A DNA stretch of 41,927 nt from an uncultured Methanosarcinales archaeon (GTDB taxonomy: Archaea; Nanobdellota; Nanobdellia; Woesearchaeales; JAGVZT01). The position numbers and the translations under genes are program-made. The number at the start of each line of letters is the position of its first letter. Position 1 is the first letter of the stretch. Location of the stretch: the NCBI GenBank assembly GCA_964419615.1, contig CAYQPU010000011.1, forward strand, positions 1 to 41,927, given 5' to 3'. Below the pieces are notes generated by a model. The model did not search any database, was not told where the DNA came from, and saw only the letters and a program-made list of their open reading frames with translations. Positions 4,289 to 40,285 of the stretch are shown here, piece by piece.

Positions 4289-4870
4289 ATGAATATGCAA
4301 ATCACATCTCCACAATTAATTGGTGAAGTAAAATCATTAGAATGTGGACATTTTCTTTATTTTTGTGCTTTTTATCCTGAAATTGATAAGGATATATCTA
4401 AAGATATATTTCAAACTGCAATGACAGAAATTGGTGATGGTACTAGACAGATTGGATTATATAAAATCCTCCAAAAACAAAATCTATCTGATAAAGAGAT
4501 CAAATCATGGTTACCAACAAGAAGTATTCTCTTAAGTCAATCACTTTATCAAGAAGAAATAGATGAACTCAGTTATTTAGCACACCAAGGATTAGTTGAA
4601 AATGGACTCAATCCAGATCTAGTAGAATTACACTACTTTGAAGACTTTGGAAACAGAGCAAATTTTGCTGTGTATTTTGACCTACACAAAGACATCAAGC
4701 AGATCCTGGAAAAAATGGAAACTGTAATGGATATTGATGTTGTTAGAGTAGAAGAAACAGGAAGGTATTTTCAACACATATTCAAATGTTATGAATCAGT
4801 TTCACCAGGAATGTATTCTGAATTATTTGTAAAAGCAGCCTATAGAATTCCATGGGATTTGTATGAATAA
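4289..4870 (+). CDS. Hypothetical protein
   Basis: 193-aa ORF; ATG about 23 nt after the TATA start (likely leaderless); no family recognised. Confidence 0.6.
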   Translation: MNMQITSPQLIGEVKSLECGHFLYFCAFYPEIDKDISKDIFQTAMTEIGDGTRQIGLYKILQKQNLSDKEIKSWLPTRSILLSQSLYQEEIDELSYLAHQGLVENGLNPDLVELHYFEDFGNRANFAVYFDLHKDIKQILEKMETVMDIDVVRVEETGRYFQHIFKCYESVSPGMYSELFVKAAYRIPWDLYE

Positions 4871-4873
4871 AAA

Positions 4874-5022
4874 TCCCCTCTCCCAGAAATCCCCAGAAAT
4901 TGTGAACAACTTCTGTTTTGAACTGGGAACCTTTCGGTCACGGCTGGCAAGTTTTCATTGTTTCTTAATAGAACCTCAACTTGCACCTACAGCCGAACGC
5001 TCTGCCGTTGAGCTAAGAGGGG
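4874..5022 (-). tRNA. tRNA-Tyr: tRNA-Tyr(GTA) with two introns (4939-4986 at position 37/38; 4888-4916 at position 59/60); CCA not encoded
   Basis: Minus strand: acceptor CCCCTCT/AGAGGGG+A73 (C1:G72, archaeal Tyr identity), D-arm GCTC-AACGGCA-GAGC, anticodon arm TTCGG-CTGTAG|A-CCGAA, variable loop AGGTT, T-arm CCCAG-TTCAAA|T-CTGGG. Removing a 48-nt and a 29-nt insert gives a perfect cloverleaf. Confidence 0.93.
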
Positions 5023-5046
5023 CTAAGTAAAAGTATTAATAAACCA

Positions 5047-5054
5047 TATATAAA
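5047..5054 (-). promoter_or_regulatory. TATA box of tRNA-Tyr
   Basis: TTTATATA on the minus strand ending 25 nt upstream of tRNA position 1. Confidence 0.7.
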
Positions 5055-5072
5055 TATTATGGATAATAAGCA

Positions 5073-5225
5073 TGGTTAGCACTACCCTGGCCAGATAAGT
5101 GAGCGAGACCATAATCATCGTAAGAAACAATAAGGTGCAGTTTGTCAAATCTTAGGATAAATTTAGATTGGTTTTGCTAGTAAGCTAACAAAATGTCGAG
5201 TGAACAGGCCCGGCAGTGCTAACCA
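5073..5225 (-). ncRNA. Unassigned structured RNA candidate (~153 nt)
   Basis: Perfect 11-bp terminal helix TGGTTAGCACT/AGTGCTAACCA extended by a GC-rich helix, plus three internal hairpins that use G-U pairs only on the minus strand. No ORF. Confidence 0.6.
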
Positions 5226-5250
5226 AAGAACAAAGTAAAAAACCCAATTA

Positions 5251-5316
5251 AAAAGAAAACCTTAAATACGACTTAATTGATCCAAACAAAATTCTCATGA
5301 ATAACAGTGGGAGGTG
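5251..5316 (+). promoter_or_regulatory. BRE/TATA promoter and SD for the 14-aa micro-ORF
   Basis: AAAAGAAAAC-CTTAAATA (5251-5268) and GGGAGGTG (5309-5316), 5 nt before ATG 5322. Confidence 0.55.
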
Positions 5317-5321
5317 CACAA

Positions 5322-5366
5322 ATGAGCTTTGAAAACAAAGAAATGGATGATCTTGAGGAATGGTGA
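5322..5366 (+). CDS. 14-aa acidic micropeptide MSFENKEMDDLEEW
   Basis: Below the ORF-track cut-off; perfect SD, upstream TATA, downstream hairpin plus T-tract. Confidence 0.5.
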   Translation: MSFENKEMDDLEEW

Positions 5367-5377
5367 TTAAACCTTTT

Positions 5378-5398
5378 AATAAGTAACTTATTTTTTTT
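5378..5398 (+). terminator. Hairpin plus T-tract after the micro-ORF
   Basis: AATAAG-TAA-CTTATT followed by TTTTTT, between convergent genes. Confidence 0.4.
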
Positions 5399-5425
5399 AT
5401 TCTGTTTGTTCAAGTATTCTATCAA

Positions 5426-5695
5426 TTATAAACCAAAATCATCAATAAACTTATTTATCATCTCATACTTATCCAAAAACTGAAAACCTTTATCAGTAAG
5501 ACTAATACATTTCCCTTTTTTATCTTTAACTTCTCTAATAAATTCCTTTTCCTTTAACTCTTCAAAATACTTAGCAAAACCTTGAGAAGAAAGATTAGAA
5601 TATCTAAGTAAAGGTGTTGGTTTAATTGAATTCTTCTTATCTCTGATAATTCTTAAAATATCATAAATCACTTCTAGTCTTTGTCTTTTCCCCAT
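5426..5695 (-). CDS. Archaeal winged-helix protein (COG3432-like predicted regulator)
   Basis: RQRLEVIYDILRII...KPTPLLRYSNLS...YFEELKEKEFI...ISLTDKGFQFL pattern. Confidence 0.75.
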   Translation of the reverse strand: MGKRQRLEVIYDILRIIRDKKNSIKPTPLLRYSNLSSQGFAKYFEELKEKEFIREVKDKKGKCISLTDKGFQFLDKYEMINKFIDDFGL

Positions 5696-6327
5696 TTTAT
5701 AACTCTTAAGATCCTCATCACAATCAATCCAAACATACCAAGTGACAGTAAATTCAAAATAACTCTCACAAATAAGGTGAATCTCATATCTGACATACTC
5801 ACTACATTAAGTAGCCAAAAAACAAACAACAATACATAAACAATATACATTGAATTAAAAGGTTGTTTTCTTAAAACAGCTGCAAGTAAAATCAAAACAA
5901 AAAAGCCAAGTTGAGCTAAAATAAGCACAGTTGGATTATTAAAAAACAACACTAATAGTGCTAATAAAACTGCAAGTATATGTGGGCTAACAATCCCATC
6001 TAATTTTTTCCAAAGCACACTATAAAACAAAGACATAATAGCAACAGTGCTAAAGTAAGTTGTTAATAATAAACTAAAATGCATTAAATATCTGGGTGGA
6101 AATAATCTTAATCCAAAATTTAAGATTGAAATAGGTATGAACAAAAACCTACATAAATACGCAACTCCAAAAAACAAAAATGCATGCCTAAAATACTTAA
6201 TACCCTTGTGGCTTGATAAATCTTGTAGATCCTTTGTCTTTATGTAAATAAAAATACAAAGCACAATAACTGCTACAGAATACAAAGCTTCAAATCCAAT
6301 TAAGTGTAATGGCATAGGTGGCCGCAT
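5674..6327 (-). CDS. Multi-pass membrane protein
   Basis: About 7 hydrophobic segments; overlaps the wHTH start by 22 nt (operon, possible sensor/regulator pair). Confidence 0.7.
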   Translation of the reverse strand: MRPPMPLHLIGFEALYSVAVIVLCIFIYIKTKDLQDLSSHKGIKYFRHAFLFFGVAYLCRFLFIPISILNFGLRLFPPRYLMHFSLLLTTYFSTVAIMSLFYSVLWKKLDGIVSPHILAVLLALLVLFFNNPTVLILAQLGFFVLILLAAVLRKQPFNSMYIVYVLLFVFWLLNVVSMSDMRFTLFVRVILNLLSLGMFGLIVMRILRVIKWGKDKD

Positions 6328-6374
6328 AAAATATTTGCAGCTCCTTTTATTTATAAATTCTATGGATCTTTAGT

Positions 6375-8999
6375 CTATTTATCCTTTAAAGCAGCATGAG
6401 CCGCAGCCAATCTTGCAATTGGAACTCTGTACGGAGAACAACTCACGTAATCAAGACCAATCTTATGACTGAATTCAATGCTTGATGGTTCACCACCATG
6501 TTCTCCACAAATACCAAGCTCAATCTTAGGATTAGTTTTTCTACCCTTTTCAACAGCAATCTGCATAAACTTTCCAACACCTGCTTGATCAAGTGCTTGG
6601 AAAGGATCTCTTGGGTAAATTCCCTTTTCCACATACTCCTTTAGGAACTTACCAGCATCATCCCTTGAAAAACCACATGTCATCTGAGTTAAATCATTAG
6701 TTCCAAAACTAAAAAACTCAGCTTCCTTTGCAATTTCATCTGCAGTAATAGCAGCTCTTGGAATCTCAATCATGGTTCCAATCATAATGTGAAGATCCAT
6801 GTCATGATTTTTCAGTGTCTCATCAATTACTTGCTTTACAACTTGCTTTTGATCAGCTAATTCTTTGACATTTCCAACCAAAGGAATCATAATCTCTGCA
6901 GTAACCTTAGTCTTCTTTTCCTTTGACACTTCACAAGCAGCCTCAACAATAGCTCTTGCCTGTATCTCAGTGATTTCAGGATAAGTTATTCCTAACCTAC
7001 ATCCTCTATGACCAAGCATAGGATTAAACTCATGCAAATCAGAAATTGTAGCTTTAATTTTATCAATGGTCACTCCCATCTCATTTGCAATCAATTTAAT
7101 ATCTTCCTCACTGTGAGGCAAAAATTCATGTAAAGGTGGATCTAATGTTCTTATAACAACTGGTTTATCTTCCATAACCTCAAACAATCCCTTAAAATCA
7201 GCCTTTTGAAATGGAAGTAAATCATCTAAAGCTTTTTCTCTGGCTTCCTTATTATCAGCAAGAATCATCTTTCTAACATGTTTAATTCTCTCACCATCAA
7301 AAAACATATGTTCTGTTCTGCATAATCCAATACCTTCAGCACCAAAACCAATTGCAGCTTTAGCATCTCTTGGAACATCAGCATTAGCTCTCACACCAAT
7401 CTTCCTGAAAGAATCTGCCCACTCCATGATCGATGCAAAACTTCCACCAACTTCTGGATCTTTGACAGGAAGCTGACTCTTAAACAATTCTCCAGTACTT
7501 CCGTCAAGAGTAATATAATCTCCTTGTTTAATGGTTGTGCCACTAACTAGAAATTGTTCTTTGTCATAATCAATAGCAATATCACCACAACCAGCAACAC
7601 AGCATTTACCCATTCCACGTGCAACAACAGCAGCATGACTAGTCATACCACCTCTTGCAGTAAGAATTCCTTTGGCAGCATTCATTCCCTCAATATCCTC
7701 TGGGCTTGTCTCAATCCTAACCAAAACAACATCCTTTCCTTTCTGAGCCCAATCATAAGCAGTATCAGCATCAAAAACAACCTCACCAACAGCAGCACCT
7801 GGACTTGCTGGAAGACCTCTTGCTAAAACCTCATGCTTATTCTTAGCTAATGGATCAATCTGTTTGTGTAATAATTGATCTAATTGATTTGGATCAACCC
7901 TTAACACAGCCTCTTTTTTATCAATCAATCCTTCGTAAACCATATCAACAGCAATCTTTACTGCAGCTTGCGCAGTTCTCTTTCCAGACCTTGTCTGGAG
8001 AATGTAAAGTTTACCTTTTTGTATTGTAAACTCCATATCCTGCATCTCTTTATAGTGCAGCTCAACCTTTTTGTAATTATCAACAAGCTCGTCATATACT
8101 GGTTGATTAATCTTCTTCAACTCTTCAATATCAAGAGGAGTTCGAATTCCAGCAACAACATCTTCTCCCTGAGCATTCATTAAAAACTCTCCATAAAATT
8201 CATTAGTTCCTGTTGATGGATTTCTTGTAAACAAAACACCAGTTCCAGAACTCTCTCCCAGATTGCCATAAACCATAACTTGCACATTAACAGCAGTCCC
8301 TTTTAATCCAGTAATGTTATTAATTCTCCTGTAAGACACAGCTCTCTTATTTGACCAAGAATCAAACACAGCATCAACTGACATCTTTAGCTGCTTAATA
8401 GGATCATCTGGAAACTGTTTGCCAACATTATCAACAATAATCTCTTTGTATTTGTCGACCAATTTCTTTAAATCATCTGCATCAAGTTCTGTATCAAACT
8501 TAACACCTTTAGTTTCTTTGGCATAATCCAAAGCCTCTTCAAACTTATGATGATCAACACCCATCACCACATTACCAAACATCTGGATAAATCTTCTATA
8601 AGAATCCCAGGCAAACCTCTCATTACCCGACTTCTTAGCCAAACTTAAAACAGTCTTATCATTCATACCTAAATTTAGTACAGTATCCATCATCCCCGGC
8701 ATTGAGATTGCGGCTCCTGACCTGACAGACAAAAGTAAAGGATTTTCTTCATCCCCAAACTTTTGACCCATATCTTCTTCTAACTTTTTTATATTCTCTT
8801 CAATTTCTTTTTTCAAACCCTCTGGCCACTTGTTTTCTTTATTAATATAACCACAAGCTTTAGTTGTTAGAGTAAAACCAGGAGGAACAGGAATCCCAAT
8901 ATTTGTCATCTCACTTAAATTAGCACCCTTGCCACCAAGAAGTTCTTTCATCTCTTTTTTTCCATCACCAAAATAATAAACATATTTCATATAATACAC
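6375..8999 (-). CDS. ppdK: Pyruvate, phosphate dikinase
   Basis: LLGGKGANLSEM, PLLLSVRSGA, SMPGMMDTVLNLG, GGMTSHAAVVARG (catalytic His), GIGLCRTEHMF, FFSFGTNDLTQ, GICGEHGG; 874 aa. Confidence 0.98.
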   Translation of the reverse strand: MYYMKYVYYFGDGKKEMKELLGGKGANLSEMTNIGIPVPPGFTLTTKACGYINKENKWPEGLKKEIEENIKKLEEDMGQKFGDEENPLLLSVRSGAAISMPGMMDTVLNLGMNDKTVLSLAKKSGNERFAWDSYRRFIQMFGNVVMGVDHHKFEEALDYAKETKGVKFDTELDADDLKKLVDKYKEIIVDNVGKQFPDDPIKQLKMSVDAVFDSWSNKRAVSYRRINNITGLKGTAVNVQVMVYGNLGESSGTGVLFTRNPSTGTNEFYGEFLMNAQGEDVVAGIRTPLDIEELKKINQPVYDELVDNYKKVELHYKEMQDMEFTIQKGKLYILQTRSGKRTAQAAVKIAVDMVYEGLIDKKEAVLRVDPNQLDQLLHKQIDPLAKNKHEVLARGLPASPGAAVGEVVFDADTAYDWAQKGKDVVLVRIETSPEDIEGMNAAKGILTARGGMTSHAAVVARGMGKCCVAGCGDIAIDYDKEQFLVSGTTIKQGDYITLDGSTGELFKSQLPVKDPEVGGSFASIMEWADSFRKIGVRANADVPRDAKAAIGFGAEGIGLCRTEHMFFDGERIKHVRKMILADNKEAREKALDDLLPFQKADFKGLFEVMEDKPVVIRTLDPPLHEFLPHSEEDIKLIANEMGVTIDKIKATISDLHEFNPMLGHRGCRLGITYPEITEIQARAIVEAACEVSKEKKTKVTAEIMIPLVGNVKELADQKQVVKQVIDETLKNHDMDLHIMIGTMIEIPRAAITADEIAKEAEFFSFGTNDLTQMTCGFSRDDAGKFLKEYVEKGIYPRDPFQALDQAGVGKFMQIAVEKGRKTNPKIELGICGEHGGEPSSIEFSHKIGLDYVSCSPYRVPIARLAAAHAALKDK

Positions 9000-35628: not shown

Positions 35629-36093
35629 CTATTTTAGAGAGGATAATTTATTTCTGATTTCCTCAATCTCTTTTTGCTCAAGCAAAATGTTTTTGCATTT
35701 GACAAGGAAAAGAGGTGTTTTCTTTATGATAAGGTTATAGTTTTGGTCTGACACTTTTCTGTTCACATAATACTGAGAGTCTATTCTTGCTGAGAATGCT
35801 TTATCGATCAACTCAAAATCTTCGGATGAAAAATTCTCCTTCAAAAATCTTCTAATGAATTCAATAGTGCATGAGTGAATCTCGCATTTTACTCCAATTT
35901 TAGTAAGTAAAGAATAAATCCCATGATAAATCGTATAGTAAGCAGCAGTTAACTGCCAATCTTTGCTTTTTGAAGTTCTTATGGTATCCAATGCTTCCTC
36001 TGCTTTCATGAGATAAGCTTCTCTGAGATTATCACTTGGGTCGATAAGTTCAATACCTTTCTTTTGCTGCATACACCACTTTATTTGATCCAT
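35629..36093 (-). CDS. HEPN-domain protein (toxin of HEPN/MNT pair)
   Basis: YLMKAEEAL, TAAYYTIYHG, HSCTI, ARIDSQYY (Rx4Y variant); overlaps the MNT gene. Confidence 0.88.
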   Translation of the reverse strand: MDQIKWCMQQKKGIELIDPSDNLREAYLMKAEEALDTIRTSKSKDWQLTAAYYTIYHGIYSLLTKIGVKCEIHSCTIEFIRRFLKENFSSEDFELIDKAFSARIDSQYYVNRKVSDQNYNLIIKKTPLFLVKCKNILLEQKEIEEIRNKLSSLK

Positions 36094-36668
36094 TTTGTAA
36101 TACTCCTCACAAATTTTTCAGCTCCTTTGATTATAATATGATTTTCTGCAATCTCCTTGAGTAAGAAGTCATCATGCATCTCATTCTTAAAAATATTCAT
36201 GGGATAACTCTTAATATTTATATCAATTCCATACATCTTACCCACTTTGGTAATCTTTTTTTCATTATATTTTCCAACAATAAGCAAATCTAGGTCAGAA
36301 TCCGCTTTGTCCATTCCTTTAGCATAACTTCCAAATATTATCAGTATTCCTTGTATGTCTTCATCTGATTTTTCAAGGATTTCCTTGACTAGATGATTTT
36401 TCTCCATAAATTGAATTTTCTTGTACTGTTCTGTTAAAAGAAAGAATTCTCGTGAAAGAGTTGATTTTTTTATTGAGTAGCTCTTGATTTTGCCTTTGAC
36501 TTTTGATACTAAAATGCTTTTCTTTTCAAGCTTAGCTAAAGTTACAAGGGCAGTTCGTGAGCTCACATTAAGAAGCTTCTCAACTTCCCTAATATAATAT
36601 TCTTTATCATAACCCTTTGTGAACAGGCTCAAAACTTTCAGATCCATATTGTTTACTTTAGTAATCAT
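36081..36668 (-). CDS. wHTH plus minimal nucleotidyltransferase (MNT antitoxin)
   Basis: N-terminal YYIREVEKLL..SSRTAL HTH; IIFGSYAKG, DSDLDLLIVG. Confidence 0.9.
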   Translation of the reverse strand: MITKVNNMDLKVLSLFTKGYDKEYYIREVEKLLNVSSRTALVTLAKLEKKSILVSKVKGKIKSYSIKKSTLSREFFLLTEQYKKIQFMEKNHLVKEILEKSDEDIQGILIIFGSYAKGMDKADSDLDLLIVGKYNEKKITKVGKMYGIDINIKSYPMNIFKNEMHDDFLLKEIAENHIIIKGAEKFVRSITKWIK

Positions 36669-38680: not shown

Positions 38681-39538
38681 TTAACCAATTTGTTGAGAAG
38701 GTTGTATGCTCTCAAGATCTCTAATCCTTTGCTTTGCTGGCATACCTGTTCTGAATAAATGCCAAAACACCTTTTGCAGCCAACTAATCCACGCCTCATC
38801 TAAGATCTCATAAAAAATTGCTAAATCGCCTTTTAGCTCATCAGGTTCATAAAGCTTTAAATCCTTTTCCTCTCTAAATCTTGCAGCTTTATCATCAATA
38901 ATAAACCCTCTAAGTGGCTGCTCACAATGTCTTATCTCTATTGCATCATATCCAACTCGCTCATTAATAGCACATAAAGTCTTAATATTATTAAGTCCAG
39001 GCAGTTCAACTCTTGAAACAACCTTAATACTCACTTTATTCCTTGCAAGCTCCTCTGCCACATCTATTAGTTTCTTATTATTCTCACTCATATTCACCCA
39101 GGACAAGTTACCAGAAAAGTGCAGTAACTGCTTTTGGGTCCCAGACAAAAAACCAATAATATTTTGCTTATAAGACTTAGTCTTGTCAGATCTATACTCC
39201 CAAAAAGCATGACGTTTTGAATCACAAATATGCTGATAGATATCAAAAGGGCTAAACTCCTGCTTAACCCTGCCAGTTTCAATTTGCTTAAACAACCTCT
39301 CCTGTGCCTGCGATCCATGTAGCTTCTCAATGCTGTTCCAGTAACAGATTTTTAGAGAGCCTCTTGTGCCCTCCCTAAACACCTTTATTGCAATAACACC
39401 TGACTCCTCACTGATTTTCTCAACATAACGATTAGCAGTTCTCCAGTTCTTACCAATGGTAAGAGCAATCTCCTGTACAGTGCGTGGCCTTTTATAAACA
39501 TATTCCTGGATTTTTTGTTTGGTTTTTGAATCAAGCAT
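38681..39538 (-). CDS. Winged-helix transcriptional regulator with TrmB-like/PLD-like C-terminal domain
   Basis: PRTVQEIALTIGKNWRTANRYVEKI (HTH); C-terminal LHFSGNLSW and LRGFIIDDK resemble the TrmB effector domain. Confidence 0.7.
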   Translation of the reverse strand: MLDSKTKQKIQEYVYKRPRTVQEIALTIGKNWRTANRYVEKISEESGVIAIKVFREGTRGSLKICYWNSIEKLHGSQAQERLFKQIETGRVKQEFSPFDIYQHICDSKRHAFWEYRSDKTKSYKQNIIGFLSGTQKQLLHFSGNLSWVNMSENNKKLIDVAEELARNKVSIKVVSRVELPGLNNIKTLCAINERVGYDAIEIRHCEQPLRGFIIDDKAARFREEKDLKLYEPDELKGDLAIFYEILDEAWISWLQKVFWHLFRTGMPAKQRIRDLESIQPSQQIG

Positions 39539-39572: not shown

Positions 39573-39623
39573 ATTGTGTTGTATAATATTTGTTAGTAAA
39601 TATTATTTTCAATACAACACAAT
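39573..39623. promoter_or_regulatory. Nested inverted repeat between divergent genes
   Basis: ATTGTGTTGTAT (39573-39584) / ATACAACACAAT (39612-39623) and ATAATATTT (39583-39591) / AAATATTAT (39598-39606). Confidence 0.6.
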
Positions 39624-39631
39624 GTAATTGT

Positions 39632-40285
39632 ATGGAACTAGAAGATATTTTGAAAAGAATAAGTAAGCTAATGGACAACGAAGATAGAACAGACCCAGAA
39701 TTTCGGGCACTCTTAGTCATGAGTGAGTTAGGTGATGTGGTAAAATATCTAACTCATGATCCAAAACTTAATCCAGGTGCAAGACCCCATGGAAGCAGCG
39801 AGGATGAAGTGCTGGCCTATGGCCAAACCCTTGCCATGCTGTTTGCAACAATGTATCTTAGAAATATTGATCCTGAGACTGCCATGGAATTAGGTCTTAG
39901 AAATTGGGAAGATGCAGACTGGAGGAAAATCGTAGCAAAAACTGATCTGGTTGAAGGAATGGTTGCTTATCCTGGTCACGTTGAAGCTCCAGCATATGTT
40001 GTTGGTATTGGCAATCCAATCTGTAAGGTAGCTCCAGGAAACATTCTTGTTGCACGTTTTCCAAGACCAGCTGACACACCATATCTTGTGCAAAGCTCAG
40101 GGCTAGTAACAGACCAAGGCGGAACAACAAGCCATGCAGCAATAATTGCCAAGCAATACAAAATCCCCTGTATTGTGGGAACAGGCAATGCAACTCGTAA
40201 GATTGAAAATGGAGCAGAGATAATTCTAAATGCCAGAGGTGACAAAGGAAGAGTTACACTAAAAATGGGGTCTGGTGATTTGTAG
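39632..40285 (+). CDS. MazG-like helical domain fused to a PEP-utilising phosphohistidine (swivelling) domain
   Basis: N-terminal LLVMSELGDVVKYL...DEVLAYGQTLAML...NID (MazG-like); C-terminal GMVAYPG, GNILVA, LVTDQGGTTSHAAIIAKQYKIPCIVGTGNAT. Confidence 0.8.
   Translation: MELEDILKRISKLMDNEDRTDPEFRALLVMSELGDVVKYLTHDPKLNPGARPHGSSEDEVLAYGQTLAMLFATMYLRNIDPETAMELGLRNWEDADWRKIVAKTDLVEGMVAYPGHVEAPAYVVGIGNPICKVAPGNILVARFPRPADTPYLVQSSGLVTDQGGTTSHAAIIAKQYKIPCIVGTGNATRKIENGAEIILNARGDKGRVTLKMGSGDL

What the first reader, a model, noticed from the sequence alone, without database searches (positions are those of the whole stretch)
39632..40285. MazG-like domain fused to a stand-alone phosphohistidine swivelling domain
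Seen: an ~90-aa all-helical N-terminus with SELGD and DEVLAYGQ motifs, joined to a complete PEP-utilising mobile domain that keeps the phospho-acceptor His and the preceding Thr (GGTTSHAA), with no nucleotide-binding or PEP-binding domain. Known: MazG NTP pyrophosphatases use ExxE...ExxD metal ligands (here degenerate to ExxD and ExxxxGQ); the His domain carries phosphate in PPDK, PEP synthase and Enzyme I and needs partner domains. Inference: a phospho-switch in which a partner (PPDK at 6375 is one candidate) phosphorylates this domain to control a nucleotide-hydrolysing or nucleotide-sensing module. I do not know of a described function for this architecture.
Basis: partly seen in the sequence, partly recalled or inferred. 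Interest (0 to 1): 0.72.

Follow-up and report, generated by a model that had tools for sequence, protein, structure and literature searches.

The report
MazG-fold domain fused to phosphohistidine carrier
This is a real, conserved but undescribed small protein of ultra-small archaea and bacteria that joins a nucleotide-binding (MazG-type) domain to a phosphate-carrying histidine domain, and its relatives often sit beside thymidine-nucleotide synthesis genes, so it probably moves phosphate to or from DNA building blocks.

Summary
Window 39632-40285(+) encodes a 217-aa protein. Residues 105-210 are a PEP-utiliser swivel domain (Pfam E 4e-23) with the acceptor His168 in GGTTSHAA. Residues 1-100 fold as an all-alpha MazG-type domain: every top PDB match belongs to that superfamily.

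The fusion is not an assembly artefact. About 180 sequence clusters share it, in DPANN archaea and CPR bacteria. It is patchy, found in 5 of 201 genomes of the phylum.

His168 is kept in 180 of 182 members. The canonical second MazG metal pair (ExxD) is replaced by A62/Q65. The invariant residues instead form a different constellation (R25, H42, D43, N47, R51, E59, G64, R77, D96, W97). Variants with a tandem N-domain keep complementary halves of it, which points to one composite site across a dimer.

A 282-aa wHTH protein is the commonest neighbour (21 of 52 loci, including this window). In 17 of 52 loci there are dTMP-pathway genes (dCTP deaminase/dUTPase, ThyA, DHFR, thymidine kinase, cytidylate kinase, DeoC), against 0 of 79 control loci.

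Best reading (confidence 0.4): a phosphohistidine-dependent phosphoryl or pyrophosphoryl transferase acting on pyrimidine deoxynucleotides. PPDK as a dedicated partner is unsupported. Two first-reader notes of this scan flagged the same fusion in other genomes.

The parts
39632..40285 (+). Gene for the 217-aa MazG-fold + swivel-His protein (stop codon included)
   Evidence: ORF and translation. Full-length homologues at 44-68% identity start at the same Met.
39632..39937 (+). N-terminal all-alpha MazG-fold domain (residues 1-102)
   Evidence: AlphaFold gives 4 helices, pLDDT >90. Foldseek and VIA-align top hits are all of the MazG superfamily. The profile finds 2gta at E 0.005.
39722..39736 (+). 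SELGD: remnant of the first MazG metal pair (E32, D35)
   Evidence: Aligns with EELGE of YpjD. E32 is kept in 81% of members (Q in 18%) and D35 in 88%.
39752..39793 (+). THDPKLNPGARPHG loop, the family signature (H42, D43, N47, R51 kept in 97-99%)
   Evidence: Conservation over 182 members. In tandem-domain variants only the second copy keeps it.
39803..39826 (+). DEVLAYGQ: the position of the second MazG pair (ExxD), here A62..Q65; E59 is 98% and G64 100% conserved
   Evidence: Alignment to YpjD EEEIGD; conservation.
39902..39928 (+). NWEDADWRK: conserved C-terminal helix of the N-domain (N91, W92, D96, W97, R98)
   Evidence: In tandem variants only the second copy keeps it.
39944..40261 (+). 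PEP-utiliser swivel (phosphohistidine) domain, residues 105-210
   Evidence: PF00391, E 4e-23. PDB sequence and fold matches to PEPS, RPH, EI and PPDK swivel domains.
40118..40141 (+). GGTTSHAA; the His168 codon is at 40133-40135 (predicted phospho-acceptor)
   Evidence: His is kept in 180 of 182 family members; the preceding residue is C or S; T166 is kept in 127 of 182.
38681..39538 (-). Divergently transcribed 285-aa wHTH protein, the commonest conserved neighbour of the family
   Evidence: Homologue within a few genes in 21 of 52 non-redundant loci and beside the gene in all 4 other genomes that carry it. Feature-based look-alikes are TrmB/HTH_5-type regulators, which is a lead only. Two members give weak PLDc_2 hits.
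39573..39623 (.). Nested perfect inverted repeats (12 nt and 9 nt arms) in the 93-bp divergent intergenic region; possibly an operator or a 5' hairpin
   Evidence: Not conserved in the homologous intergenic regions of 5 other loci.

Best explanation
The gene encodes a self-contained two-domain phosphotransfer protein of pyrimidine-deoxynucleotide (thymidylate) metabolism. The MazG-fold N-domain forms a dimer. Its composite pocket uses acidic and Arg residues of helices 1-3 of one chain, plus the THDPxLNPxARPHG loop and the NWEDADWRK helix of the other. The pocket holds a (deoxy)nucleotide by its phosphates. His168 on the flexibly linked swivel domain takes the place of the water nucleophile of MazG and dimeric dUTPase enzymes. 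It attacks, or donates to, the phosphate chain of the bound nucleotide, forming a phospho- or pyrophospho-histidine intermediate. The result is (pyro)phosphoryl transfer between nucleotides rather than plain hydrolysis. Shown here: both folds, conservation of His168, loss of the canonical ExxD pair, the complementary decay in tandem variants, and the synteny. Inferred: nucleotide binding, the dimer, the chemistry, and the identity of donor and acceptor. The neighbouring wHTH protein probably regulates the gene (inference from the divergent arrangement only).
For: (1) Both folds are secure.
(2) His168 is kept in 180 of 182 members and the GG-x-T-[CS]-H motif is intact, so the carrier function is under selection.
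(3) The N-domain is at least as conserved as the swivel domain. R25 and G64 are invariant; H42, D43 and R51 are kept in 99%; E59, N47 and R77 in 97-98%. That is the pattern of a ligand or catalytic site, not of a mere dimerisation helix bundle.
(4) Six clear variants with two N-domains in tandem keep EDRKDxEFR + TExGD + GQ only in copy 1, and the loop + NWEDADWRK only in copy 2. This is the pattern expected if one site is built from two protomers.
(5) The N-domain is almost never found without the swivel domain: 167 fused clusters against at most 9 short proteins, several of them probably fragments.
(6) Synteny: 17 of 52 non-redundant loci carry dTMP-pathway genes within 4 genes, in five different arrangements. 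These are DCD-DCD-ThyA-DHFR-X; SHMT-FolD-DCD-X-DeoC; TK-X; two divergent CMK genes next to X; and X-ThyA. None of 79 control loci has such a gene.
(7) Chemistry: in dimeric, MazG-superfamily dUTPases the nucleophile attacks the beta-phosphate (review PMC12524310). From my own knowledge of the PPDK and PEP synthase mechanism, the swivel His attacks the same atom of ATP.
(8) Precedent: the substrate-domain + swivel subunit HpeH alone catalyses phosphate exchange between substrates through its His (PMC12167813).
Against: No biochemical data exist. The canonical second metal pair is absent (A62/Q65). E32 is Q in 18% of members, and a subfamily with an N-terminal extension has SQLGS, so metal-assisted chemistry of the MazG type is not universally kept. 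Thymidylate kinase, NDK, trimeric dUTPase/DCD, and ThyA or ThyX are all present in the five high-quality genomes with the gene, so it fills no obvious pathway hole. The gene is rare, in 5 of 201 genomes, which suits an accessory or regulatory role as well as an enzymatic one. In this window the neighbours are a wHTH gene, a NUDIX gene and a PHP gene, not thymidylate genes. The inter-domain geometry of the model is uncertain (pTM 0.56) and I could not inspect coordinates. The control for synteny used queries drawn from family loci, which favours the family. Several type-A loci may come from related organisms.
Confidence: 0.4

Rival explanations
1. Phospho-switch. The N-domain is a hydrolytic dUTP/dCTP-type pyrophosphatase or house-cleaning enzyme that feeds dUMP to thymidylate synthase. 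The swivel domain is only a regulatory receiver, phosphorylated in trans by PEP synthase or PPDK, and tunes the hydrolase to energy status.
For: MazG fold. E32/D35 and E59 are kept in most members. The gene sits next to DCD, ThyA and DeoC, where a dUTPase-type step fits. Every genome with the gene has PEPS or PPDK. JGI names a stand-alone relative 'NTP pyrophosphatase'.
Against: The ExxD pair needed by characterised MazG enzymes is replaced by A62/Q65. Type-A operons already encode two DCD/dUTPase-family genes, and all five genomes have trimeric dUTPase-family genes. PEPS/PPDK occurs in 90% of the phylum's genomes, so co-occurrence is uninformative. From my own knowledge, trans-phosphorylation of a foreign swivel domain by PPDK has no precedent.
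Confidence: 0.2
2. Non-catalytic nucleotide sensor. The degenerate MazG-fold domain senses a pyrimidine nucleotide. Together with the swivel domain, it signals to the adjacent wHTH regulator, in the way dimeric dUTPases derepress Stl, and so controls nucleotide-salvage genes.
For: The wHTH protein is the single commonest neighbour (21 of 52 loci) and is in all five genomes with the gene, against 53 of 201 overall. The metal pair is lost outright in a subfamily that carries an extra N-terminal extension. Dimeric dUTPases are documented as signalling proteins (PMC5608427, listed). The gene has a patchy, accessory distribution.
Against: Near-absolute conservation of His168 and of the phosphocarrier motif is hard to explain without phosphoryl chemistry. 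The wHTH family is 10 times commoner than this gene and has unrelated neighbours elsewhere, such as topoisomerase I and DHH. The bacterial type-A and type-B loci have no wHTH gene. No palindrome is conserved between loci.
Confidence: 0.15
3. Carrier/acceptor subunit of a split dikinase (HpeH-like). A separate ATP-grasp protein loads His168 with phosphate, which is then passed to a substrate held by the N-domain. The loader could be the orphan 447-aa PPDK_N protein on contig 2 of this genome, or PEP synthase itself.
For: Two-component dikinases with a [substrate domain + swivel] subunit are known (PMC12167813). This genome has exactly one swivel-only protein (this one) and one PPDK_N-only protein with no swivel region, on contig 2. 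Earlier notes of this scan describe one-loader-many-carriers layouts in CPR and DPANN.
Against: No PPDK_N gene lies in any of the 52 family loci. Genome G179 (97% complete) and G167 (95% complete) show no PPDK_N match outside PEP synthase. Close relatives of the contig-2 protein occur in sister genomes that lack this gene. The N-domain is unrelated to the rifampin-binding or HpeH substrate domain.
Confidence: 0.12
4. Gene-calling or assembly artefact: two unrelated genes read as one.
For: None, beyond the unusual architecture.
Against: It is one uninterrupted frame. The same fusion appears in more than 150 clusters from many samples and in 5 high-quality genomes.
Confidence: 0.01

Closest known systems
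All-alpha NTP pyrophosphohydrolases (MazG, YpjD, dCTPase DCTPP1/RS21-C6, iMazG, HisE, dimeric dUTPase)
   Same: Four-helix fold of the N-domain (Z 8.4-10.1 and TM up to 0.76). The first acidic pair is on the equivalent helix (E32..D35 against EExxE). There is evidence for a dimer-built site. The family is associated with pyrimidine deoxynucleotide genes.
   Different: The second catalytic pair ExxD is A..Q. There is a family-specific invariant loop THDPxLNPxARPHG and an NWEDADWRK helix. The domain is obligately fused to a phosphohistidine domain. Pfam MazG models do not match.
HpeH / rifampin phosphotransferase-type [substrate-binding domain + swivel His] modules of small-molecule dikinases (PMC12167813)
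   Same: The layout is a substrate-binding domain followed by a C-terminal swivel domain with an essential His. The swivel domain's best structural matches are to RPH (E 9e-9). HpeH alone can shuttle phosphate between substrate molecules.
   Different: The substrate domain is a MazG fold, not the RPH/HpeH fold. No ATP-grasp partner gene lies nearby. The likely substrate class is nucleotides, not aromatics or antibiotics.
PEP synthase / pyruvate phosphate dikinase
   Same: The swivel domain is homologous: 34-40% identity over about 100 residues, with the GGxTSHAA motif.
   Different: It lacks both the ATP-grasp and the PEP/pyruvate TIM-barrel domains. Complete PEPS and PPDK genes exist separately in the same genome.
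Pyruvate kinase with an extra C-terminal PEP-utiliser domain (Geobacillus, Staphylococcus)
   Same: A swivel-type domain is appended to a nucleotide-handling enzyme that lacks the dikinase partner domains (PDB 2e28 and 3t05 are hits).
   Different: The partner domain is different, and the role of that extra domain is itself unsettled (my own knowledge).

Membership tests
PEP-utilising enzyme mobile (swivel) domain, PF00391 | Profile score above Pfam's gathering cut-off | tested here: met
   81.2 bits against a cut-off of 23.1, E 4.2e-23, residues 134-201.
PEP-utilising enzyme mobile (swivel) domain, PF00391 | Phospho-acceptor His in the G-G-x-T-S/C-H-A-A motif | tested here: met
   GGTTSHAA at residues 163-170. 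His is kept in 180 of 182 family members.
PEP-utilising enzyme mobile (swivel) domain, PF00391 | Swivel-domain fold | tested here: met
   Foldseek matches to RPH 5fbs (E 9e-9, rmsd 2.2 over 109 columns), PPDK, EI and the PK C-terminal domain.
PEP-utilising enzyme mobile (swivel) domain, PF00391 | The His is actually phosphorylated | not testable with these tools
   Needs biochemistry.
MazG / all-alpha NTP pyrophosphohydrolase superfamily | Four-helix all-alpha NTP-PPase fold | tested here: met
   Foldseek top hits are all of the superfamily, TM 0.58-0.76. VIA-align top 15 are all of the superfamily, Z 7.3-10.1, and the next unrelated chain scores 6.4.
MazG / all-alpha NTP pyrophosphohydrolase superfamily | Sequence-profile membership | tested here: inconclusive
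   The N-domain profile finds YpjD 2gta at E 0.005 and 5ie9 at E 0.14. No Pfam or NCBIfam MazG model matches at E<=1.
MazG / all-alpha NTP pyrophosphohydrolase superfamily | Catalytic acidic tetrad ExxE ... ExxD | tested here: not met
   The first pair is present as E32..D35 (81% and 88% conserved). The second pair is A62..Q65 in the window protein and in about 85% of members.
MazG / all-alpha NTP pyrophosphohydrolase superfamily | Homodimer (or tandem pseudo-dimer) forming the active unit | tested here: inconclusive
   Indirect only: tandem-domain variants retain complementary sets of motifs. No multimer model was possible.
MazG / all-alpha NTP pyrophosphohydrolase superfamily | NTP to NMP + PPi activity | not testable with these tools
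   Needs an enzyme assay.
Two-component small-molecule dikinase (HpeHI / CreHI / PpsAB type) | Subunit with a substrate-binding domain homologous to the RPH rifampin-binding domain, plus a swivel domain | tested here: not met
   The swivel part is met, but the N-domain is a MazG fold with no RPH-type match.
Two-component small-molecule dikinase (HpeHI / CreHI / PpsAB type) | Separate ATP-grasp (PPDK_N) subunit encoded with it | tested here: not met
   No PPDK_N homologue in any of the 52 family loci. Genome G179 has no PPDK_N match apart from PEP synthase.
PPDK / PEP synthase | Three-domain architecture: ATP-grasp + swivel + PEP/pyruvate TIM barrel | tested here: not met
   Only the swivel domain is present.

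The most novel reading that the evidence does not exclude
The protein is an energy-saving pyrophosphoryl shuttle of the thymidylate pathway. His168 attacks the beta-phosphate of dUTP (the dCTP deaminase product) held in the MazG-fold site, releasing dUMP for thymidylate synthase and forming His~PP. It then hands the pyrophosphate to dTMP in the same site, making dTTP. The net reaction is dUTP + dTMP <-> dUMP + dTTP. This would be a reversed-MazG nucleotide pyrophosphotransferase with a phosphohistidine intermediate, a reaction class I do not know to have been described, in organisms with minimal energy budgets.
Probability: 0.1. Interest if true: 0.9.

Novelty: new variant of a known kind. Interest (0 to 1): 0.66.

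Why it matters
Swivel phosphohistidine domains are known to work only between an ATP- or PEP-binding donor site and a substrate site. MazG-fold domains are known only as hydrolases. A conserved, obligate fusion of the two, embedded in dTMP-synthesis operons of CPR bacteria and DPANN archaea, suggests an undescribed way of handling nucleotide phosphates: transfer instead of hydrolysis. It could add a missing piece to nucleotide salvage in ultra-small symbionts. The protein is small, soluble-looking and directly testable, through autophosphorylation, nucleotide exchange and an H168A mutant. It also gives a first functional handle on a widespread, uncharacterised wHTH regulator family of Nanobdellota.

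Tried and rejected
1. PPDK or PEPS as a specific partner, tested by co-occurrence. The PEP-utilizers_C domain is in 180 of 201 genomes of the phylum, so the test is uninformative.

2. An orphan ATP-grasp loader. The contig-2 PPDK_N-only protein has close relatives only in sister genomes that lack this gene. Two of the four other genomes with the gene show no orphan PPDK_N. No PPDK_N gene is in any family locus.

3. Replacement of a missing canonical enzyme. Thymidylate kinase, NDK, dUTPase/DCD, and ThyA or ThyX are all found in the five genomes.

4. The ThyX adjacency reported by earlier scan notes. No ThyX or Tmk homologue turned up in my 52 loci using queries from G167 and G173. ThyA adjacency was found instead.

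5. Viral origin. No relative is present in IMG/VR.

6. A conserved operator in the divergent intergenic region. The window's nested palindrome is not shared by 5 other loci.

7. Identity of the wHTH neighbour's C-terminal domain. There is no PDB profile hit below E 0.1 and only weak Pfam hits. The ESM Atlas gives look-alikes only. The Atlas gave nothing for the N-domain.

8. The N-domain + Metallophos fusion P0123/L121. It keeps the first strands of the swivel domain and then switches family, on a 2.2-kb contig. It is probably a chimera or a truncation, and I did not use it as evidence.

9. Literature. Three searches found no description of this architecture.

Full report
**1. What is there**

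The frame 39590-40285(+) is open. Homologues begin at the ATG at 39632, giving a 217-aa protein.
- SELGD, 31-35
- DEVLAYGQ, 58-65
- GGTTSHAA, 163-170

Pfam finds one domain, PF00391 (PEP-utilising enzyme mobile domain), at E 4.2e-23 and 81 bits. NCBIfam models of PEP synthase, PRK08296-type proteins, rifampin phosphotransferase, Enzyme I and PPDK all match only this C-terminal part. The same holds for the PDB chains of those enzymes. No ATP-grasp (PPDK_N) or PEP-binding (PEP-utilizers_C) domain is present.

**2. The N-terminal domain**

AlphaFold, run with a 32-sequence alignment, gives a confident model (mean pLDDT 92.8). It has helices at residues 3-15, 22-41, 56-76 and 81-95, followed by the beta-rich swivel domain. 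A pTM of 0.56 shows that the relative placement of the two domains is uncertain.

A fold search with the whole model is dominated by the swivel domain (RPH, PK C-terminal domain, PPDK, EI). I therefore modelled residues 1-103 alone (pLDDT 90.9).
- Foldseek against the PDB returns only all-alpha NTP pyrophosphohydrolases at the top: YpjD 2gta, mouse dCTPase 2a3q/6sqz, iMazG, SsoMazG 1vmg, BcMazG 5ie9, HisE, DR2231 and dimeric dUTPases. TM scores reach 0.76, but the E-values are weak (>=0.02).
- VIA-align against 48,161 representative chains independently puts 15 members of that superfamily first (Z 10.1 to 7.3). Scores then drop to unrelated helical proteins at Z 6.4.
- A sequence profile of 15 N-domains finds YpjD at E 0.005.

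In the YpjD alignment, YpjD's EELGE matches SELGD, so the first metal pair survives as E32..D35. YpjD's EEEIGD matches (E59)VLAYGQ, so the second pair, ExxD, has become A62..Q65.

This is a MazG fold with a half-degenerate catalytic tetrad.

**3. A real family with its own conserved site**

The word-indexed search found 85 relatives, nearly all of 210-240 aa and covering both domains. The exhaustive HMMER search found 68 representatives at E<1e-30, a mix of full-length relatives and long multi-swivel proteins. Searching with the N-domain profile alone found 167 longer proteins. The 120 best are listed, and all but two of those carry PF00391. Only 9 short proteins turned up, several of them probably fragments; JGI names one of them 'NTP pyrophosphatase (non-canonical NTP hydrolase)'. 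The two domains are thus obligately linked.

Source names are Woesearchaeota, Nanoarchaeota, Pacearchaeota and Aenigmatarchaeota, plus several Patescibacteria.

Conservation over 182 full-length members:

| Residue(s) | Conservation |
|---|---|
| His168 | 180 of 182 |
| R25, G64 | 100% |
| H42, D43, R51 | 99% |
| E59 | 98% |
| N47, R77 | 97% |
| D96 | 96% |
| W97 | 94% |
| E32 | 81% (Q in 18%) |
| D35 | 88% |

The signature of the family is therefore not the MazG tetrad. It is made of three elements:
- EDRKDxEFR
- a loop, K-Y-x-T-H-D-P-x-L-N-P-x-A-R-P-H-G
- a helix, N-W-E-D-A-D-W-R-K

Fifteen members have more than one N-domain. In six of them with two clear copies, copy 1 keeps EDRKDxEFR, TExGD and G-Q but has lost the loop and the NWEDADWRK helix. 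Copy 2 shows the reverse. This complementary decay is what is expected if a homodimer forms two composite sites and a fused pseudo-dimer needs only one. I take it as indirect evidence for a functional, dimer-built pocket.

A subfamily with an N-terminal extension of about 100 aa has SQLGS instead of SELGD. The MazG-type metal pair is therefore dispensable in some members.

**4. Distribution**

Among 201 genomes of the window's phylum, all at least 90% complete, only 5 carry the N-domain. None of the same genus or family does. No copy was found in IMG/VR. It is an accessory gene of DPANN archaea and CPR bacteria.

**5. Genomic context**

I collected 52 non-redundant loci from genome and metagenome contigs.

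*The wHTH neighbour.* The commonest neighbour is a protein of about 282 aa with a winged-helix N-terminus. It occurs in 21 of 52 loci, usually divergent. In this window it is at 38681-39538(-). It lies beside the gene in all four other genomes that have the gene. That family is itself much commoner (53 of 201 genomes), and elsewhere it has unrelated neighbours such as topoisomerase I. Its look-alikes are TrmB/HTH_5-type archaeal regulators, and two members give weak PLD-like hits; both are leads only.

*Pyrimidine-deoxynucleotide genes.* The second theme is pyrimidine-deoxynucleotide metabolism, in five different arrangements:
- **A:** dCTP-deaminase/dUTPase-family gene (one or two copies) - ThyA - DHFR - X on one strand. 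Five loci, one with a further short ORF before X. A bacterial-type ribosomal protein S2 lies nearby, so these are CPR bacteria.
- **B:** DCD-like - X - DeoC in two loci, once preceded by SHMT and FolD. A third locus has X - DeoC with the DCD-like gene three genes upstream.
- **C:** thymidine kinase one or two genes upstream (4 loci).
- **D:** cytidylate kinase gene(s) (two copies in three loci, one in the fourth) upstream on the opposite strand (4 loci).
- **E:** X followed after 4 nt by a ThyA-like gene (1 locus).

In all, 17 of 52 loci have such a gene within four genes. None of 79 control loci (779 ORFs) does, using the same BLAST queries. The controls were other swivel-domain proteins and wHTH loci without X. 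The caveat is that the queries came from family loci, and that type-A loci may be kin.

*This window.* Here the neighbours beyond the wHTH gene are a NUDIX hydrolase and a PHP phosphoesterase. A second locus also has a NUDIX gene.

**6. Partners**

The window's genome (99% complete) contains:
- a PEP synthase
- the PPDK of this window
- two ATP-grasp proteins with their own swivel-like region, one recognised by Pfam and the other a degenerate one that I read by eye
- one PPDK_N-only protein of 447 aa on contig 2

That last protein looked like a candidate loader. However, its close relatives occur only in sister genomes without X. Two of the four other X-bearing genomes have no PPDK_N match outside PEP synthase. 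No family locus contains a PPDK_N gene. PEPS/PPDK-type TIM barrels occur in 180 of 201 genomes, so their presence alongside X says nothing.

Thymidylate kinase, NDK, trimeric dUTPase/DCD, and ThyA or ThyX are present in all five X-bearing genomes. X therefore does not obviously replace a missing enzyme.

**7. Mechanism proposed**

Shown here:
- a nucleotide-hydrolase fold that has lost half of its hydrolytic metal site but gained an invariant Arg/His/Asp-rich site
- an obligately attached, intact phosphohistidine carrier
- embedding in dTMP-pathway operons

Established knowledge:
- In dimeric, MazG-superfamily dUTPases the nucleophile attacks the beta-phosphate (Hemsworth 2013, as reviewed in PMC12524310).
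- In PPDK and PEP synthase the swivel His attacks the beta-phosphate of ATP to give a pyrophosphoryl-His (my own knowledge).
- The [substrate domain + swivel] subunit HpeH can by itself shuttle phosphate between substrate molecules through its His (PMC12167813).

Inference: His168 replaces water as the nucleophile at the phosphate chain of a pyrimidine (deoxy)nucleotide bound in the composite N-domain site. The protein would then transfer, rather than hydrolyse, a phosphoryl or pyrophosphoryl group. I put this at 0.4.

Its most specific and most novel form is dUTP + dTMP <-> dUMP + dTTP via His~PP, which I put at about 0.1.

The rivals are a hydrolase regulated by His phosphorylation (0.2), a non-catalytic nucleotide sensor working with the wHTH regulator (0.15), and a carrier subunit loaded by an ATP-grasp partner (0.12).

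**8. Comparison and novelty**

The swivel domain is a bona fide member of PF00391. The N-domain belongs to the MazG superfamily by fold but fails the catalytic-tetrad test, so I do not file it as a MazG enzyme. The closest working analogue is the substrate-plus-swivel module of RPH/HpeH-type dikinases, with a different substrate domain and no linked ATP-grasp.

I found no paper describing the architecture. Two first-reader notes of this scan flagged the same fusion in other genomes, next to thyX. I could not reproduce the thyX link in my loci, but I did find ThyA. Two follow-up reports on split dikinases led me to PMC12167813.

**Verdict:** This is a new variant of a known kind, of good interest, and directly testable.

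Noticed in passing
window 39573-39623: Nested perfect inverted repeats (12-nt arms ATTGTGTTGTAT/ATACAACACAAT enclosing 9-nt arms ATAATATTT/AAATATTAT) lie in the 93-bp divergent intergenic region between the wHTH gene and the fusion gene. They may be an operator or a 5' hairpin. They are not conserved in 5 homologous loci.
   Followed up: partly
window 38681-39538 (-); own genome contig 19, 4237-5085: The 285-aa wHTH protein belongs to an uncharacterised family present in 53 of 201 genomes of the phylum (mean column identity 68% among the 10 copies next to the fusion gene). The genome holds a second copy on contig 19 that is interrupted by a TAA.
   Followed up: partly
genome G173 contig 37, about 71500-82900 (not in the window); proteins P0088, P0089: A single open frame of about 4200 aa carries nine PEP-utiliser swivel domains followed by a PPDK_N domain. 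Giant proteins of 1800-2650 aa with 5-6 swivel-matching stretches also surfaced in the HMMER search.
   Followed up: no
own genome contig 2 (L086:1453-2796), contig 5 (L088:1333-2751), contig 19 (L089:766-1959): Three small PPDK_N (ATP-grasp) proteins exist besides PEPS and PPDK. One of 447 aa has no swivel domain and a long acidic tail. Two (472 and 397 aa) have their own, partly degenerate, swivel region. Stand-alone PPDK_N ORFs of about 310 aa are common in other genomes of the phylum.
   Followed up: partly
L121:945-2186 (protein P0123): A 413-aa ORF on a 2.2-kb metagenome contig joins an intact N-domain and the first strands of the swivel domain to a calcineurin-like phosphoesterase. It is either a chimeric assembly or a rare domain replacement.
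   Followed up: partly
window 35629-36668 (-): Adjacent HEPN (154 aa) and nucleotidyltransferase (195 aa) genes overlap by a few codons. This is a typical HEPN/MNT toxin-antitoxin-like pair.
   Followed up: no
genome G167 contig 43, about 4500-8630: PEP synthase domains are spread over a 1577-aa open frame, with the PPDK_N and swivel matches split apart. This suggests one or more inteins or insertions.
   Followed up: no
window 5674-6327 (-): A 217-aa ORF next to PPDK has the same length as the fusion protein but is an unrelated, very hydrophobic (multi-pass membrane-like) protein with no Pfam match.
   Followed up: partly
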